Below, piece by piece: positions 3,001 to 9,000 of a DNA stretch of 12,477 nt. The stretch's first letter is position 1, and the number at the start of each line of letters is the position of its first letter. Source of the stretch: a virus. The position numbers were made by a program. The stretch lies in UHGV virus genome UHGV-0119008; one strand, given 5' to 3'.

Positions 3001-6000
3001 TCCTGAGCAGGCCGAGATCCACAATTTCCTGATGCTGGATATTGAACGCCGGGTTTACGACCTGAGCCGCATCAACGACAGATTGCAGGCTATTAACTGA
3101 CCCGCATGTATTCACCTGATATTGCGTTGTCAGCGCCGCCAGTATCGCGCATAACAGCGCACTGACCGGGTAAACCGTAGCGCACGACCGTTGCGTTAGT
3201 ATCACCGCCGCGCCGTATCTGGCGCGATTCATACACTGTCACCCGCTCAAGCAGTCCACCAGCAACCATGCTTTCCAGTGTGCGCCGGGTTGATTCGAGC
3301 TGGTGACGCTTATCGAACGACACCATGCCATGAAGCAGGTAGGCCACACCCGACACATCGAACGGCGGCGCACCAATCTCACCAGTCACCCATTCGAGGT
3401 TATCCGGTTCAAAGTAGCTAAGTATCTCTTTTTTGCGGCTGGTCATTCTCATGGCTGGCTGATTCCTTATTGTGGGATAGCACTATCATACAATAAGTGG
3501 GTTAAAGGGAGAGCGTTACCGCCTGATATGCTGTATGAATAACAACCAAATTTCAGGGGCGGAAAAAGATATGGGGGTACTTTTGGGGGTATCTATAAAA
3601 AATGAACAATAAAAAAGGCAACAAAAACAAAGCTTATCGCCTATGTGTATTGTTCCTATTATCGCACAATCAAGAAAATCAATAACTTAGCTTAACTTCT
3701 CTAAGAAATTGTATCTTCTGTTATCACTTACAAACGCCTATACGTTGTTATGGGCTTTGGTAGTGTAACACGTATGGGCGAGTAGTTCCCAGGCTCAACC
3801 TCGTAACAAGTTCCTTTGAAGCTGGAAGACGTGCCACCGTCTCTAAACCTTCTACCAAAACTCTTAGCAAGATGTTCCACACCTGGCGCGGTGTCCAATG
3901 ATGCTACACGTCGTGAGACGTTGCAGAGGATAAACAGGCTAAATGATGGGAAGAGTTTTAAGTGCAATAGTGGATCAAAGCCCACCTCTTCAAAACCTAA
4001 CTTGATCGGGAAAGAATCAAGCTCTAGCACGGTTTCGTCCACCGGAGTACAACGGGTGCCTGATAAGAGAAGAACTGCTAAGACTTCATAGCTTTTGTGA
4101 AAAAGCCCTTTTAGTGGATACGCCTACGGCGCTTATTTTTTGGGGTAGCCCATCAAAGGCGCTTTATGGCTCCTATTGTCTTGAAAATGTATCTTTACTT
4201 GTATTGTGTTTTATGCGTAGTCTCCCTGTGTAGTATGTAACTTGTTAATTTTCATATGAATACAGAGGCACACGATGAAAAACATTGCAGCTATCAAACG
4301 TAATAACCGCAAGATTCACGCTCGTAAGTTCCTGTCTACGCCAGAAGGAAAAGCCTGGCTAGAGCGTAAACAGAGAGAGAACGAAGAAAGAAAACTCCTT
4401 AATGAGTTGAAATGGCTTAGAGAGGATTTCTGAAAATCTCCAGAACGCAACAGGGCGCATTCTAACGCTGTTTTCATTACTCGGTATAGGGATGTATAGG
4501 TGATGTGTGTTTAATGCGTCTGTGCGCTTGTTTTGTGCCTTATTTTGCATTTTCATAATGCAGAAGAGAACACGGAAAACCTTAAAATTAATTATTGGGG
4601 TATTTAAGGGTATTTTCAGGTGATTTAAGGGTATTAAACTTGATTTAATTGATTAAAATATAAACAGATAGTTGTGTATCTTATTGATTTATAAGGTTAT
4701 TTTTAAATAAAGGTAAATAAAAAATAAATAGCCATAAATAGCTATAAATACATCTAAATACCTATATCCCTTCCCTTATGGCTAGATTGCGAGAGGTGCT
4801 TAACGCGATTTTCAGCGCCCCCCGATCTGGAAAATCCAGAATCCCCAAATATCAGCAAGGAATTTTCTTGCGTAATCAACATCGTTTTTACCTATTAAAT
4901 CATTACACAGAAAGCCTTTCTGTAATGTCTCTCACTAAACTTTCACTAAACACGAGAATGATCGGTTTTATGTCGGATCAGATGCTAGAAACAGCACCAC
5001 GTCTCACAAGGACTGTAAGCGATGAAACCAGTGTTTATGCGGGTGCAGGTCAAAATATAGGCCAAAATCAATTTAACATAATAAACGTAATATGCACTAA
5101 GGAACACATAGAACGCCTTGAGTTGATGTATCAGGGGAAAAAAGGTGATGGATTTTTTACGTAGGAGCACGAGAGGGCTTCTGTTGACTTTTGTATGCTA
5201 TGAAACATAATTAAAGGTTTTTTTGTTTTTATTGTGTGATGTAGTGGATTACACAGGGGAATAGATTAAATGGTGTTCTGTTTATACAGGTTTATTTGTT
5301 AGATCAACAATTTGGCATTTCTAAACAGATGTTTGAACGTTGCCAAATGTCTTGACAACACAAGAAAAGGGCTTGCTATGCCACGCATTACACGAAATAA
5401 GGCTATAAAAACAAAATAAATTTTAAAATTTGCACAAACGAGAAAACTCGTTAAGAAACAAGCAGAACAATTTTTAGCCAACAATTTCTGATGGTGCTCT
5501 GTAGGCCGCACTACACAAGGATTTGCGAAAGTGATGTAAAAGTGAAGAAAGTAAGAATTGCACTTTTAAGCTACTTTTCATTGAATTTTTAGTATGGAAT
5601 TACACAGGAATAAGTTAGGGATATTCTATGATTTACACAGGGAATATAGGGGATTATGGCACACACATAGAAAGGCATTACACAGAGTGAGTGCTATGTG
5701 ATGATTGGTAGTAACGGTAGGTCATAGTGAGCTAGGGGGTAGGTCACTGTGAACTACAATAAGACTATTAATAAAACTATATTAGATTATTAATTAGATC
5801 ATAATAATAATATTCTTTATATCTATATATATGATCTTTTGCCTTCCGGCGTTAGCTTCACTCTCTGGCAAGCAGCCTTACTCCGCTACCTTTCGGGCTT
5901 CGTGGCTGGCCCGTTCCGCTCACACCGAAAGCAAAGCGTTACTTTCTTCGTGTAACTTCGTTGGCGGTAACGCCCACGAAGAAATCTATTGCGCTGTGCG

Positions 6001-9000
6001 CAGTAAGAGTAATCACCTAACCAATCATACTGATTGCTTATGTGTTAACTCTCTCTAACTCTTAATTACCCTCCTACATTTAATAACTCTGTTATTCTCT
6101 GTAGTTGTGTAATTACTCGAAGAGAGAGCGGCTAAAGCTCAATTACACTCTGCTTTCCTCGTGTAATTTCACTAAGCCTCAATACAATTTCACTTCCTAC
6201 ATTCTGTAGTCGTGTAATTGTTTTCGGTGGAAAAGCCAGAGGCGACACCGAAAGAGAATTCTGATCTTATTAATCTTATCTATCTTAGTTAATCTTCTTA
6301 CTTATCTTACTTACTTTATCTACTTTATTATTAATAATAGCTTTATAAGCTCTCTGTGTAGCTCTCTGACGCAAGAAACAGCATTCAGGAAGGGAATCAC
6401 CTTAGAAAAGGTGTTCTTTGCGTCATAATGTGTTTTATGAAGGATTCAGAGGTGTTTCATAACAGGAATGTATAGAGAATACTTTAGGTAATTAAAAATA
6501 AGGGGTCTAAATGCTTCTCTAACAGCATTAAGCAGGGTAGGGAATGGAAACGCATTGCCTACACATAATAAACTCACTACAGGGCTTTACAGGGCGTTTT
6601 ATAAAGTGACTCTCTGTTTTATATCTACAATCACCTTTTCATATACCTAACAAATACAAAATAAGCCCCTTAAATAAGCCTCTGGCGAGCTAAACAGACA
6701 TTACATAAGAGAATGTATTGCTTTTATCAAAATCTCGTTAGAACGCGTTTTAGAGCGTTTTAGCGGATAATGAAGAATAGCACTACACAGAAGAGCACGA
6801 ATTGCTAAGACAAATTATAACATGCTGAAAAAGATCGATTTTTTCGAAAAGGGTATTGACAAATGTTTCTTTATATGTAATAATAGGTATTAGAGGGACA
6901 GAAAAACATTCTTCTCTAAATAATCAAAATCAATGCACTTTGAAGCCGTCAGGCTTGCAAGGTGTTTTATTTCTTTTAACTGAATAAGGAGTTTTTTATG
7001 AAATGGTTTACACCGGAGCACGTCGTAAAGGCATTTAAAAAAGGTGAGCTTACACGCCACCAAATAGTAATGAATCGTAATATGGCAAGGAGTCGAGGTT
7101 ATCCAGAGCGAGCAGCTTGCTTCAATGAAGCACTCAAGATTATTGATGAACTAAGAAAAAATGAAAAAGAATCTGAAACAGAGTAAAGAAGAGAAGGAGA
7201 AAACTATGAGCGAAGCTACAGAAAAGAAAAGACAACCACGCACTTGCTTTCATATTCCTGATGAAGTATTTCAGGTGTTGTTTAAAGAAGCCAGAAGTAA
7301 ACGTATCACTGTTACAGATTACATTCTTGATATGTTGAAAAGAGAGGCTGAAACACTCTCAAATAAAAGCAAGTGATTTTTATCACCATAGTAGCGCCGT
7401 AGAGCGTGATTACATCAAGGAGATTTTTAATGATTAATGAAGAACAATTTGTAAAAGTTCCTATGTGGATTCTAAAAATAAGCCAAGTAAACGGGCATAA
7501 ATTTACAGATAGTGCTAAAAACCTTTACTGCTATCTGAAAGGGTTTGATCGTGCATTTCCCTCTTACGCTAAGATAGGCGATGTTTTTGGCATAACACCA
7601 AGAGCAGCAGAGGAAAGGGTTAAGAAATTGCTCGAAATGGGGTTAATTATAAAAGATGCACGACCAGGAAGTTCTAATGTCTATCAAGTGGTAGATATTC
7701 CACAAGAAGAAGCTAGACAAGAAGCCAAGACACAACAAGAAGCTACTGTTAAAGCTGTTCCTGATCAGCTTCCCCCTACGGAAGATAATAAACAGCCTTC
7801 TTTTGATGTTCTTGATGATTGGGATGCGCCTTTGCCGTGGGAGACGGAAGAAACACCTGTTTCATCAAGTGAAAAGGTAGCTAATGATAATGAGGAGGAT
7901 GTGTTAGAGAATTTTGCCTCTCTTATCATCCAGGAGAAACACAAAAGAACAGGAGGGGCATCATTTATAGAATTTGCAAATTCACTAGCTTGTAGATACG
8001 GGCTAAAACGACCAAATGGTATTGAGGCATATTTTTCTAAGCATTACCCAAATGTATACGAAGACTTTGATATTCCCTTTTAAAAAGTAAGGAGGACTAT
8101 TGATACAGTATTTAATAAAAAGCAAAGTAGACAGAATTCAGTGTAACGACACAGGAAAACGCATCTACGAAACGCTTGCTTACCTCTATAAAGGAAAGCC
8201 AACACCGCTAAAATATAGCGATGTGTTACATCGAGCAGGTTGCTCTGAGTCAGGTTTAAAATTCTGGCTGAAACAGCTATCAAATTTCGGTGTTATTGAA
8301 ATGAAAGAGCTGTCTTTCTCTACATTTAATCTCAAAAGACTAGATAAAGAAATAGAATTCATCTATTCCACTCTCTAAAATCTCTCTATGTAATTAAAAT
8401 ATAAAAGGAAAACATTATTATGATAGTAGCTATGTATTGGTTATTGTTCTTTCTCACGTTAGAAGCATATTTCGGGGTGTTTTCCTTTAAAAGAAAAGGA
8501 AAAGTAAATTATGGCAAAAAGAAAAAACAACGTTGTTAAGAAAATCGGTGATTCAGCTTCTCTTCTAAGTAAACCTAAATCTATTCTAAAACGTAAAGAC
8601 TTTAAAGAGCTAGTTACGCTCACCAAGCATAATAGCGCCCCTGGCGAATGGAAAACAGAGATCATAGAACATTCTCCCTCTGTGCCTTGTGGAGATGAAT
8701 ATATCGCCTTACAAGAAATCTTATCTTCAACACCTGGCGTGTTCTGGAAACCTAAAAAAAGAAAAGAGTATATCGTTGATAGCTCTGATTTACGCAAATA
8801 CCAGATTTTAGGATTTGAAGATTATAATCACTACGTTGGTTATCTCGCCACAAATGGCCTAAATAATTTAGTTCCTGAATTCCAGATTTTAGATAATGCA
8901 GATCACTATGGAGACTTTTAATATGAACAAAAACACGTATGACACAATTTACTCACTAATTAATTATTATGAGGATGATTACCTCCTGCCTTTAAACCGC

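What the first reader, a model, noticed from the sequence alone, without database searches (positions are those of the whole stretch)
5831..6260. GC-normal island inside the AT-rich desert with GNRA-capped hairpin and repeated TTTCGG...CCGAAA stems
Within the AT-rich centre, a ~230-bp block of ordinary GC content contains a 10/11-bp stem capped by a GTAA tetraloop (5956-5981), a nested stem ctttcgg / ccgaaag (5890-5896 with 5925-5931), and a second tttcggtg / caccgaaa hairpin at 6222-6253. The block is preceded by an AT-rich TATA-like stretch. The overlapping 75-aa ORF (5831-6058) has no SD. This is a candidate structured non-coding RNA, or alternatively the origin core.
Basis: seen in the sequence. 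Interest (0 to 1): 0.4.

Follow-up and report, generated by a model that had tools for sequence, protein, structure and literature searches.

The report
Conserved folded module beside satellite origin
The flagged block is one copy of a roughly 400-base non-coding element, kept with compensating base-pair changes across many enterobacterial islands. It always sits directly beside the replication origin of a small capsid-encoding integrated element, matches no known RNA family, and is either a new structured RNA or a new kind of single-strand origin signal.

Summary
The coordinates, GC bump, hairpins and 75-aa ORF are all as described, and the block folds far better than shuffles (z -7 to -8).

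The ORF is not a gene: frameshifting indels break it in relatives at least 92% identical.

The true origin core lies just upstream. It has dyad-symmetric 17-bp iterons (5718-5756; 2-10 copies at 22-23 bp spacing in relatives), and the iteron type tracks the N-terminal domain of the lambda-O-like initiator. A GATC-bearing AT-rich stretch follows (5757-5838).

The GC island (about 5859-6253) is a separate module. It is constant across about 12 lineages that carry at least seven different iteron types. Its parts:
- a 5' irregular hairpin;
- a three-way junction containing the GTAA hairpin;
- a small GC hairpin;
- two optional hairpins;
- a long 3' hairpin.

Covariation is strong: 96-99% of cells pair in the first two domains, against 18-64% when partners are slid. 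G.U outnumbers A.C 98 to 5, which puts the structure on the top strand.

There is no match in Rfam or in the phage and plasmid collections, and none of six conserved 16-22-base strings occurs in the paper library.

My estimate is a novel non-coding RNA at about 0.45 and a folded single-stranded-DNA initiation signal at about 0.3. No conserved promoter or terminator was found, and no transcript data were available.

The parts
5718..5756 (.). Two 17-bp near-palindromic iterons (TAGGTCATAGTGAGCTA and TAGGTCACTGTGAACTA), 22 bp apart. These are binding sites of the O-like initiator family ('type A').
   Evidence: 4 strand-matches against 0.04 expected. Relatives carry arrays of 2-10 copies at 22-23 bp spacing. 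Iteron type tracks the Rep N-terminal cluster: 13 of 14 for type A, 8 of 10 for type B, all for type C.
5757..5838 (.). AT-rich unwinding stretch with GATC sites at 5797-5800 and 5833-5836.
   Evidence: Sequence; GC 0.36. An AT-rich stretch ending in (A/T)GATCT(T/A)T is present in most lineages whatever the iteron type.
5859..5925 (+). 5' domain, an irregular hairpin. P2 is GGC 5867-5869 with GCC 5909-5911. P2a is CAGCC 5873-5877 with GGCTG 5904-5908. P2b tip is GC..CC 5885-5890, TTTC, GG.C 5895-5898. It is followed by the conserved block CCCGTTCCGCTCA.
   Evidence: Model R2 matches at 5859-5925. On alignment A8, 98.8% of cells pair against 76.2% in shuffles and 18-64% when slid. All 5 P2a pairs change on both sides, with up to 4 pair types. 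Rows shown.
5943..5984 (+). Three-way junction. P1 is TCGTG 5948-5952 with CACGA 5975-5979, extendable to 5943-5952 with 5975-5984. P1a is AAC-TTC-GTT at 5954-5962.
   Evidence: Model R1 matches at 5940-6007. On alignment A4, 96.3% of cells pair against 86.7% in shuffles and 23-45% when slid. 3 of 4 P1a pairs and 4 of 5 P1b pairs change on both sides. The DNA minimum-energy fold reproduces the junction.
5989..6003 (+). Small conserved hairpin H5: TTGCGC, TGT loop, GCGCAG.
   Evidence: TTGCGCTGTGCGC is nearly invariant. The closing pair alternates U.G (10) and U-A (6). A compensated variant, UUCGC/GCGAA, occurs in L138.
6014..6128 (+). Two optional hairpins found only in 'long-form' lineages. 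Ia spans 6014-6044 (CAC.TAA.CAATCA, TAC loop, TGATTG.TTA.GTG). Ib spans 6049-6128 (CTCTCTCT ... AGAGAGAG) and encloses a duplicate of the 3'-hairpin tip.
   Evidence: Absent from L008, L014 and L019. The stems are compensated in L049, L065 and L041: Ib outer stem CTCTCTCT/AGAGAGAG, CTCTACCT/AGGTAGAG and CTGACT/AGTCAG. R3 gives partial matches to the duplicated tip.
6127..6244 (+). 3' domain. It holds highly conserved blocks (GGCTAAAGCTCA; CCTCGTGTAATTTCACTAAGCCTCAATACAAT; CTGTAGTCGTGTAATTGTTTTCGG...GCCAGAGG) that fold into a long imperfect hairpin. In the window the tip is CTACA, TTC, TGTAG.
   Evidence: Model R3 matches at 6127-6244 with 94.7 bits. On alignment A9, 88.6% of cells pair against 84.3% in shuffles and 30-45% when slid; 5 of 33 pairs change on both sides; an invariant U.G is present. 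This is weaker covariation, because the sequence itself is almost invariant.
6222..6253 (+). Lineage-specific hairpin TTTCGGTG ... CACCGAAA. It competes with the base of the consensus 3' hairpin.
   Evidence: Present in all window-type sequences. The 3' arm is absent from the divergent lineages.
7406..8083 (+). Replication initiator (context). It is lambda-O-like, with a winged-helix N-terminal domain. In this window it belongs to the iteron-B-specific cluster.
   Evidence: phrog_270 at 5e-11, phrog_391 at 1e-7, HTH_36. Cluster assignment.
6856..6975 (+). Promoter of the rep-capsid operon (context): TTGACA, 17 nt, AATAAT at 6856-6884. It is followed by a conserved hairpin plus T-run at about 6926-6975, ahead of the first ORF.
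   Evidence: The promoter matches 11 of 12 positions. Promoter and hairpin are conserved in most of the lineages compared (not in L014/L030).

Best explanation
The block 5831-6260 is the window's copy of a conserved module of about 0.38-0.5 kb. Its function depends on the top (+) strand folding on itself.

The module sits directly to the right of a lambda-type origin, within about 25-60 nt of the last GATC of the unwinding stretch. The host element is a roughly 12-kb integrative, capsid-encoding, satellite-like island. Its gene order is O-like Rep, several unknown small proteins, an E-family capsid protein, a tape-measure-like protein, a Dit-like protein and an integrase.

My committed reading is that the module is a new structured non-coding RNA. 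It would be transcribed rightwards out of, or through, the origin, in the same sense as the rep-capsid operon. It would act in cis or as an RNA-protein particle in origin firing (transcriptional activation or priming), or in a later step of the element's cycle.

Shown: conservation, secondary structure, strand, non-coding nature, and physical linkage to the origin regardless of Rep/iteron type.

Inferred: that the folded molecule is RNA, where it starts and ends, and what it does.
For: 1. Structure is conserved by compensation. The 5' hairpin shows 98.8% paired cells, and all 5 P2a pairs change on both sides with up to 4 pair types. The three-way junction shows 96.3% paired cells and 10 of 26 pairs change on both sides. 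The 3' hairpin shows 88.6% paired cells. Slid controls give 18-64%. The extra lineage L078 adds further compensated versions of P1, P1a, P1b and P2a.
2. The strand is clear. G.U outnumbers A.C 98 to 5 in modelled pairs, with CG/UG/UA alternation and an invariant U.G.
3. The architecture looks like a large RNA. There are at least 7 helices in fixed order, a three-way junction without junction bases, optional domains inserted at one fixed point, and long invariant unpaired blocks. One is a 35-nt block identical across the non-window lineages compared (bar single substitutions in four of them), whose capsid proteins are only 54-65% identical to the window's. P1b loops are GNRA or GNRA-like in most lineages: GTAA, GAGA, GTGA, GAAC, GAAT.
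4. It is not coding.
5. The module is constant while iterons and the Rep N-domain are swapped, and it is always syntenic.
6. The left flank of the origin also shows a weaker preference for top-strand pairing. This fits a top-strand transcript rather than mirror-image DNA signals.
7. It is common: 701 of 5426 complete E. coli genomes, plus Franconibacter, another Escherichia species, and gut and other metagenomes.
Against: - No position-conserved sigma-70 promoter lies upstream and no intrinsic terminator lies downstream, on either strand.
- In the L014/L049-type lineages a terminator-like hairpin lies between the unwinding stretch and the module.
- Many hairpin loops are only 3 nt (TTC, GTA, TGT, TAC), and some stems are short and A/T-rich. 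This is more typical of DNA hairpins.
- The top strand is pyrimidine-rich.
- G.T is also the best-tolerated DNA mismatch, so the strand asymmetry does not separate RNA from top-strand DNA.
- Folding is as exceptional with DNA parameters as with RNA parameters (z -8.0 against -7.1).
- The covariation alignments were fitted to covariance models, which leans them towards the structure.
- No expression data could be examined.
Confidence: 0.45

Rival explanations
1. The module is a single-stranded-DNA initiation signal. Rep opens the AT-rich stretch and unwinding spreads rightwards. The top strand is the lagging-strand template, or displaced strand, of a rightward fork. It folds into SSB-resistant hairpins that recruit host priming or helicase-loading machinery of the PriA or DnaG type. 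Known parallels are the ssi sites beside iteron origins and the primosome assembly sites downstream of the ColE1 and pAMbeta1 origins.
For: - The module directly abuts the unwinding stretch in fixed orientation in every lineage.
- It is independent of Rep/iteron type, as expected for a site read by conserved host machinery.
- The folded strand is the one predicted for a rightward fork.
- The loops are rich in 3-nt loops and the stems are short.
- The DNA fold has z = -8.0 and reproduces the junction.
- No promoter or terminator was found.
- No primase or recognisable helicase-loader gene is present in the element.
- RSF1010 oriV offers a precedent, with iterons and the ssiA/ssiB hairpins in one origin (PMC8567376; the order iterons, AT-rich region, ssi is from my own knowledge).
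Against: - At 380-500 nt with at least 7 ordered helices and a three-way junction, it is several times larger and more complex than known ssi sites (40-140 nt; own knowledge).
- The long invariant unpaired blocks are not needed by PriA-type recognition.
- blastn finds no similarity to any phage or plasmid record, and those collections should include the classical ssi carriers.
- The left flank shows no mirror-image signal on the bottom strand.
- An invariant U.G pair and CG/UG/UA alternation are more RNA-like.
Confidence: 0.3
2. The module is a double-stranded DNA regulatory or assembly region. It would be an array of binding sites for host or element proteins, such as an origin enhancer, a partition or packaging (pac/cos) site, or operators. 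The palindromes would be protein half-sites rather than folded strands.
For: - GTGTAA/TTACAC boxes recur on both sides of the origin.
- Conserved blocks are very long and almost invariant.
- The element encodes several small HTH or Arc-like proteins.
- The element has no recognisable terminase, so it must carry a packaging site for a helper somewhere.
Against: - Helices keep their complementarity while their sequences are replaced wholesale. P2a occurs as CAGCC/GGCTG, TGACC/GGTCA, GTCC.GG/CC.GGAC and TC..ACC/GGT..GA. Protein half-sites do not behave this way.
- The strong G.U over A.C asymmetry is meaningless for duplex DNA.
- No lambda cosN or P2/P4 cos sequence lies in the region, and no DnaA box.
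- The right-hand GTGTAA boxes turn out to be arms of the hairpins.
Confidence: 0.1
3. The module is a cis-acting leader or processive-antitermination RNA for the rep-capsid operon. Transcripts that start upstream of the module would carry it and read through the hairpin plus T-run at 6926-6975. Transcripts from the operon's own promoter would stop there. This is a sub-case of the RNA reading with a different job.
For: - The module has the same sense as the operon and lies upstream of it.
- A conserved promoter-proximal terminator-like hairpin precedes the first ORF in most lineages.
- HK022 put RNAs set a precedent for protein-independent antitermination (own knowledge).
Against: - The module is tightly linked to the origin, not to the operon promoter. 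Spacing to the promoter varies from about 250 to 600 nt or more through insertions, while nothing is ever inserted between the unwinding stretch and the module.
- It is 5-6 times larger than put RNAs.
- No upstream promoter has been identified.
Confidence: 0.1
4. The 75-aa ORF 5831-6058 encodes a small protein, and the apparent structure is incidental.
For: An ATG-initiated 75-codon ORF exists.
Against: - From the same ATG, the frame ends after 41, 46, 58, 59 or 75-88 codons in relatives at least 92% identical, because of 2-7 gapped alignment positions per relative, which shift the frame.
- The ATG lies inside the AT-rich unwinding stretch, and the ORF is absent from divergent lineages.
- There is no Pfam or PHROG match.
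- PGAP annotates nothing here in hundreds of genomes.
Confidence: 0.01

Closest known systems
IncQ plasmid RSF1010 oriV (iterons, AT-rich region, ssiA/ssiB hairpins)
   Same: Both place initiator-specific iterons, an AT-rich opening region and then strand-specific folded sequences immediately beside them. In RSF1010 the folded single strand is where priming starts (PMC8567376 for ssiA/ssiB as 40-nt inverted repeats within oriV; the order of parts is from my own knowledge).
   Different: RSF1010 has two 40-nt hairpins on opposite strands, read by a plasmid-encoded primase. Here there is one module of 380-500 nt with at least 7 helices, on one strand only. The element encodes no primase, and there is no sequence similarity.
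Bacteriophage lambda origin (ori-lambda) with O protein
   Same: Both have an O-like winged-helix initiator, dyad-symmetric iterons about two helical turns apart, an adjacent AT-rich stretch, and no DnaA boxes. Lambda also needs transcription near the origin and has a small palindrome to the right of the AT-rich region (own knowledge).
   Different: Ori-lambda lies inside the O gene. Here the origin lies about 1.6 kb upstream of Rep in a 2.5-kb non-coding region. It carries a large conserved folded module where lambda has only a 28-bp palindrome.
Primosome assembly sites and G4-type ssi signals downstream of ColE1, pAMbeta1, F, R6K and R100 origins
   Same: Both are strand-specific hairpins on the strand displaced when synthesis leaves the origin, and both are independent of the initiator (own knowledge).
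   Different: The known sites are 55-140 nt, are often dispensable, and are not conserved as ordered multi-domain units. blastn finds no similarity to the phage and plasmid collections.
Large structured non-coding RNAs of prophages and mobile elements (ROOL, GOLLD, HEARO/omega-RNA class) and phi29 pRNA
   Same: The size is several hundred nucleotides, with many helices, a multi-way junction, optional domains and a home in mobile or phage-related DNA. pRNA is also built around a three-way junction and is encoded next to a replication origin (own knowledge).
   Different: There is no match to any Rfam 15 family at E up to 1. The hosts are Enterobacteriaceae. The tight physical coupling to an iteron origin is not a feature of those RNAs. 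Transcription has not been shown.

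Membership tests
Any described RNA family (Rfam 15, 4227 models) | Covariance-model match at or near the family's gathering score | tested here: not met
   There is no hit in 5400-6700 at E up to 1 in the window. There is none over the homologous module in 7 divergent loci, where only unrelated tRNAs and chance hits appear.
Structured non-coding RNA (generic) | Secondary structure maintained by compensatory substitutions, on one strand | tested here: met
   Searches give 96.3%, 98.8% and 88.6% paired cells, with 10, 7 and 5 pairs changed on both sides and slid controls at 18-64%. 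G.U outnumbers A.C 98 to 5. Caveat: the alignments were fitted to the models.
Structured non-coding RNA (generic) | Own promoter and terminator, or another defined transcript boundary | tested here: inconclusive
   Consensus scans find only weak candidates inside the AT-rich stretch and their positions are not conserved. No conserved terminator is found. A helper-activated promoter would escape such scans.
Structured non-coding RNA (generic) | Detectable transcript | not testable with these tools
   No expression data are available. No paper in the library holds the conserved sequence strings.
Lambda-type iteron origin (applies to 5716-5838, not to the island itself) | Repeated dyad-symmetric initiator sites at helical-turn spacing next to an AT-rich stretch, with a cognate O-like initiator | tested here: met
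   Iteron type tracks the Rep N-terminal cluster across 46 loci.
Lambda-type iteron origin | Origin located inside the initiator gene | tested here: not met
   The iterons lie 1.65 kb upstream of the Rep start, in non-coding DNA.
Single-strand initiation (ssi) or primosome assembly sites | Strand-specific hairpins adjacent to an origin, on the strand exposed by fork movement | tested here: met
   Top-strand structure lies immediately right of the unwinding stretch. The direction of replication is inferred, not shown.
Single-strand initiation (ssi) or primosome assembly sites | Sequence relationship to known phiX174-, G4- or RSF1010-type sites; size 40-140 nt | tested here: not met
   blastn finds no match to the phage or plasmid collections. 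The module is 380-500 nt.
Single-strand initiation (ssi) or primosome assembly sites | Supports priming of complementary-strand synthesis on single-stranded DNA | not testable with these tools
   This needs an M13 origin-deletion plaque or conversion assay, or in-vitro priming.
Protein-coding gene (ORF 5831-6058) | Reading frame and protein sequence conserved in homologs | tested here: not met
   Frameshifting indels occur in close relatives and the frame length varies from 41 to 88 codons. There is no family match.
Phage cohesive-end or packaging site (lambda cosN, P2/P4 cos) | Presence of the helper-type cos sequence | tested here: not met
   There is no match in the non-coding region. The two 2-mismatch lambda cosN matches lie in coding DNA elsewhere, and P2 cos gives 0 matches. 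Other pac or cos types were not tested.

The most novel reading that the evidence does not exclude
The module is a previously undescribed class of large structured RNA of about 0.4-0.5 kb: a 5' hairpin, a three-way junction and a long 3' hairpin, with optional domains. It would be carried by a widespread, uncharacterised family of capsid-encoding satellite-like islands of Enterobacteriaceae and transcribed from the edge of the origin's unwinding element. It would physically couple transcription to origin firing as a primer or activator. Alternatively it would serve as an RNA component of the element's replication or packaging machinery, as pRNA does for phi29.
Probability: 0.4. Interest if true: 0.8.

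Novelty: new variant of a known kind. Interest (0 to 1): 0.62.

Why it matters
About one in eight complete E. coli genomes carries this element family, yet neither the islands nor their 2.5-3 kb non-coding region appear to be described.

The module is more conserved than any protein of the element. It survives wholesale exchange of initiator and iterons, so it must be read by something conserved, either host machinery or a folded RNA's own partners.

If it is RNA, it adds a new large structured RNA class in the best-studied bacterium and links it to replication of a phage-satellite-like element.

If it is DNA, it is the largest and most elaborate origin-attached single-strand signal known. It would show how an O-like initiator without a recognisable helicase loader or primase starts replication.

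Either way it gives a clean, testable handle on how these islands replicate. Stem break-and-restore mutants can be designed directly from the covariation table.

Tried and rejected
- tRNA, tmRNA or an attP core fragment: ARAGORN finds nothing.
- Tn7-like or transposon ends suggested by the TGT...ACA-type GTGTAA/TTACAC boxes: rejected, because the right-hand boxes are hairpin arms and the centre is an iteron origin.
- A long-range closing helix joining the start of the 5' domain to GGCTAAAG (3 pairs predicted): not conserved when I read the lineages against each other.
- Pairing CACTTAC with GTAAGTG in the 3' domain: broken without compensation in L065 and L074.
- Mirror-image structured signal on the bottom strand left of the iterons: not found. 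The left flank is weakly structured, and on the top strand.
- An Frpo-like single-stranded promoter inside the long 3' hairpin: I saw no acceptable -35/-10 in either arm by eye (no scan was run).
- ERIC-repeat relationship (shared AGTAAGTG): only an 8-mer recalled from memory. I treated it as chance and did not test it.
- MAFFT Q-INS-i structural alignment: unavailable.
- Patterns TTTCGGGAGTAAGTGCC and GTAGTTGTGCTATTGG in viral contigs: mostly chance hits, with only 4 new true loci.
- Literature searches for the element type and for sequence strings: nothing relevant.
- NCBIfam names for the element's small proteins: none.

Full report
**Observation**

- a 10-of-11 stem capped by GTAA at 5956-5981;
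- CTTTCGG (5890-5896) with CCGAAAG (5925-5931);
- TTTCGGTG (6222-6229) with CACCGAAA (6246-6253).

It also shows a 75-codon ATG ORF at 5831-6058. GC rises to 0.44-0.47 between 5801 and 6100, within a 0.32-0.37 background.

The stretch 5855-6260 folds much better than dinucleotide shuffles. The z-score is -7.1 with RNA parameters and -8.0 with DNA parameters, and 0 of 100 shuffles fold as well.

**Where the window comes from**

The window is 99.6% identical to part of an island at tRNA-Thr in E. coli AF3. PGAP annotates no gene between window 4433 and 6995.

Related elements sit at other sites, for example tRNA-Gly. An intact copy there is about 12.3 kb and runs in this order:
1. a small ORF;
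2. about 2.9 kb without genes;
3. two small ORFs and a 225-230-aa protein;
4. several unknown small proteins;
5. a Phage_cap_E major capsid protein;
6. a 609-aa tape-measure-like protein;
7. a Dit-like protein;
8. an integrase.

The 225-aa protein (window 7406-8083) matches lambda-O-like and DnaD-like replication initiators (phrog_270 at 5e-11, phrog_391 at 1e-7, HTH_36).

The region 5560-6360 has matches in 701 of 5426 complete E. coli genomes. In 396 genomes the match covers at least 80% of it. It has no match in the phage collection and none over the island in the plasmid collection.

**The ORF is not a gene**

Among relatives at least 92% identical, alignment gaps that shift the frame scatter through the ORF. 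From the same ATG the frame ends after 41, 46, 58, 59 or 75-88 codons. The ATG lies inside the AT-rich stretch. There is no Pfam or PHROG match.

**The origin core is just upstream**

Positions 5718-5734 and 5740-5756 are two copies of a 17-bp near-palindrome (TAGGTCAYWRTGARCTA), 22 bp apart. That gives 4 strand-matches against 0.04 expected. Relatives carry 2 to 10 copies at 22-23 bp spacing.

An AT-rich stretch (5757-5838) with two GATC sites follows.

Other lineages have quite different palindromic repeats at the same place:
- ACAGAATTCTGT;
- CTATCAAnnnTGATA;
- TGTGACGnnnCGTCACA;
- GTGACAAnnTGGCAC;
- AGTAACGnnnnGGTAC;
- ACATCAAATTGATGTA.

Across 46 loci the repeat type tracks the N-terminal (winged-helix) cluster of the initiator: 13 of 14 for type A, 8 of 10 for type B, and all for type C.

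This is the signature of a lambda-type iteron origin. Two things differ from lambda: the origin lies 1.65 kb upstream of the initiator gene, and no DnaA box is present.

**The GC island is a separate, constant module**

I found homologs through three routes:
- the Rep protein;
- conserved DNA strings in viral contigs;
- conserved DNA strings in metagenomes.

Together they give about a dozen lineages that are only 52-56% identical to the window over a 740-nt extract. All keep the same order: conserved left flank, lineage-specific iterons, AT-rich/GATC stretch, the module, a promoter plus leader hairpin, orf62, an Arc-like ORF in most, and Rep.

Within the module, long blocks are almost invariant:
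- CCCGTTCCGCTCA;
- AGCGTTAC;
- TTGCGCTGTGCGC;
- GGCTAAAGYTCAYTTAC;
- CCTCGTGYAAnTTCACTAAGCCTCAATCCAAT;
- CTGTAGTTGTGCTATTGGTTTCGGGAGTAAGTGCCAGAGG.

These blocks stay near-identical while the capsid proteins of the divergent lineages are only 54-65% identical to the window's.

Between the blocks lie stretches whose sequence is replaced but whose self-complementarity is kept.

**Structure tests**

I built three covariance models from small seeds with hand-assigned structures. I used them to align all loci, then counted pairs.

| Domain (window coordinates) | Cells paired | Shuffled | Slid partners | Pairs changed on both sides |
|---|---|---|---|---|
| 5' hairpin (5859-5925) | 98.8% | 76.2% | 18-64% | 7 of 12 |
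| Three-way junction plus H4/H5 (5940-6007) | 96.3% | 86.7% | 23-45% | 10 of 26 |
| 3' hairpin (6127-6244) | 88.6% | 84.3% | 30-45% | 5 of 33 |

In the 5' hairpin, every pair of the middle helix changes on both sides. One pair takes the forms A-U, C-G, G-C and U-A. The helix occurs as CAGCC/GGCTG, TGACC/GGTCA, GTCC.GG/CC.GGAC and TC..ACC/GGT..GA.

In the junction domain, 3 of 4 P1a pairs and 4 of 5 P1b pairs change on both sides. The outer-stem pair alternates C-G (11) and U-A (5).

The 3' hairpin gives weaker evidence because the sequence hardly varies.

Two further hairpins (6014-6044 and 6049-6128) occur only in 'long' lineages. They are also compensated: CTCTCTCT/AGAGAGAG, CTCTACCT/AGGTAGAG and CTGACT/AGTCAG. 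The divergent locus L078 supplies yet other compensated versions of four helices.

Caveats:
- The alignments were fitted to the models.
- The sequences are related, so the shuffle control overstates significance.
- The slid-partner control and the number of distinct pair types are the more trustworthy measures.

The GTAA hairpin corresponds to arm P1b (GGCG-GTAA-CGCC, 5963-5974) of the three-way junction. The junction's outer stem is TCGTG (5948-5952) with CACGA (5975-5979). Some lineages can also form that register, so a conformational alternative cannot be excluded.

The 5890/5925 pairing is not conserved.

The 6222-6253 hairpin is specific to the window-type lineage.

**Which strand**

In the modelled pairs there are 98 G.U cells at 15 column pairs against 5 A.C cells. 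Two of those five come from a one-column misalignment. One U.G is invariant, and several pairs alternate C-G/U-G or U-G/U-A. The structure therefore belongs to the top strand, the sense strand of the rep-capsid operon.

The left flank of the origin is also conserved. It shows a weaker structure signal, again on the top strand: alifold -14.6 against -7.8 kcal/mol, and G.U 53 against A.C 5. So there is no mirror-image arrangement.

**RNA or DNA?**

| For RNA | For DNA |
|---|---|
| Size and ordered multi-domain architecture | Immediate, fixed adjacency to the unwinding stretch |
| Junction without unpaired bases | No position-conserved promoter or terminator on either strand |
| Optional domains inserted at one fixed point | A terminator-like hairpin between the AT-rich stretch and the module in some lineages |
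| Long invariant unpaired blocks | Many 3-nt loops and short A/T-rich stems |
| GNRA or GNRA-like loops on P1b in most lineages (GTAA, GAGA, GTGA, GAAC, GAAT) | Pyrimidine-rich strand |
| Wobble pattern | No primase or recognisable helicase loader in the element |
| Top-strand bias on both sides of the origin | The folded strand is the one a rightward fork would expose |

G.T tolerance cannot separate the two. DNA parameters fold the region as exceptionally as RNA parameters do.

My estimates are RNA 0.45 and single-stranded-DNA initiation signal 0.30. Duplex protein-site array and an antitermination leader are minor alternatives. The leader reading is a sub-case of RNA, so the figures overlap.

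**Comparison with known systems**

No Rfam 15 family matches, in the window or in seven divergent loci. blastn finds no similarity to phage or plasmid records, even with a divergent copy as query. No lambda or P2 cos sequence is present. No paper in the library holds any of the six conserved 16-22-base strings searched.

By function the nearest precedents are:
- RSF1010 oriV, with iterons and the ssiA/ssiB hairpins (PMC8567376);
- primosome assembly sites downstream of the ColE1 and pAMbeta1 origins (own knowledge);
- ori-lambda itself;
- on the RNA side, the large structured RNAs of mobile elements and phi29 pRNA (own knowledge).

The module fails the size and similarity criteria for known ssi sites. 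It also fails the match criterion for any described RNA family. I therefore treat it as a new family attached to a known kind of origin.

**Verdict**

This is a real, conserved, top-strand folded module of about 0.4 kb, fused to a lambda-type iteron origin of an uncharacterised but common family of satellite-like islands. It is non-coding and undescribed. Its chemistry (RNA or DNA) and its role are inferred only. Interest is 0.62.

Noticed in passing
window 5718-5756 and 7406-8083: The window's own element looks like a Rep-swap recombinant. It has only two type-A iterons, but its Rep belongs to the cluster that otherwise goes with type-B iterons (ACAGAATTCTGT). Loci L016, L063 and L012 are 100% identical in the island and, as far as each extends, in the other proteins checked; L016 and L063 carry the type-A-associated Rep (54% identical) and L012 ends before Rep. 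The origin here may therefore be orphaned or inactive. An IS2 also interrupts the element downstream.
   Followed up: partly
window 6856-6975: The strong promoter of the rep-capsid operon (TTGACA, 17 nt, AATAAT) is followed about 40 nt later by a conserved GC-rich hairpin plus T-run (GCACTTTGAAGCCGTCAGGCTTGCAAGGTGTTTTATTT), ahead of the first ORF. This could be a leader terminator or attenuator, or an ~85-nt small RNA. It is conserved in most divergent lineages.
   Followed up: partly
L008 2425-2481; equivalent positions in L019, L049, L065, L074: The conserved left flank of divergent lineages holds an 18-22-codon micro-ORF (MKVLIVDNDRCEPHGVRL, MKVYIVHNDRCKPCAVRLPHK and similar). Its differences fall largely at third codon positions, so it may be a real small peptide. 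It overlaps a 14-bp palindrome, CATTGTNNACAATG, that resembles a DnaA box. I did not see the same ORF in the window-type left flank.
   Followed up: no
window 4778-5164: This unannotated 128-aa ATG ORF sits in the 'gene-less' region. Against L004 and L005 it differs by an in-frame 3-bp indel and a few substitutions, so it may be a missed gene. It has no Pfam or PHROG match.
   Followed up: no
window 4700-4765: A run of ~10-11-bp direct repeats (TAAATAGCCA TAAATAGCTA TAAATACATC TAAATACCTA) lies in very AT-rich DNA (GC 0.26). Copy number differs between loci. It may be phased A-tracts (bent DNA) or another protein-binding array.
   Followed up: no
window 4902, 5252, 5388, 5510, 5597, 5630, 5675, 6783 (+ orientation): An ATTACAC(A/G)G box recurs at least 8 times in one orientation, left of the origin and once near the rep promoter. 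The inverted copies to the right of the origin are hairpin arms of the module. The left-hand array is unexplained and may be sites for one of the element's small DNA-binding proteins.
   Followed up: partly
L004 3157-3520, L005 3275-3560 (homologous to window 5700-5760): Iteron arrays vary from 2 to 10 copies. In L004 and L005 part of the AT-rich stretch and an extra iterated segment (including one type-B-like site) are duplicated upstream. This suggests frequent slippage or recombination at the origin.
   Followed up: partly
L006 7408-12632 (element at tRNA-Gly); window 10196-12458: The element encodes a capsid protein, a tape-measure-like protein and a Dit-like tail protein, but no recognisable portal, terminase, protease or tail tube. 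This gene set fits none of the satellite families I know (P4-like, PICI, cf-PICI, PLE, PICMI). The element type itself seems undescribed.
   Followed up: partly
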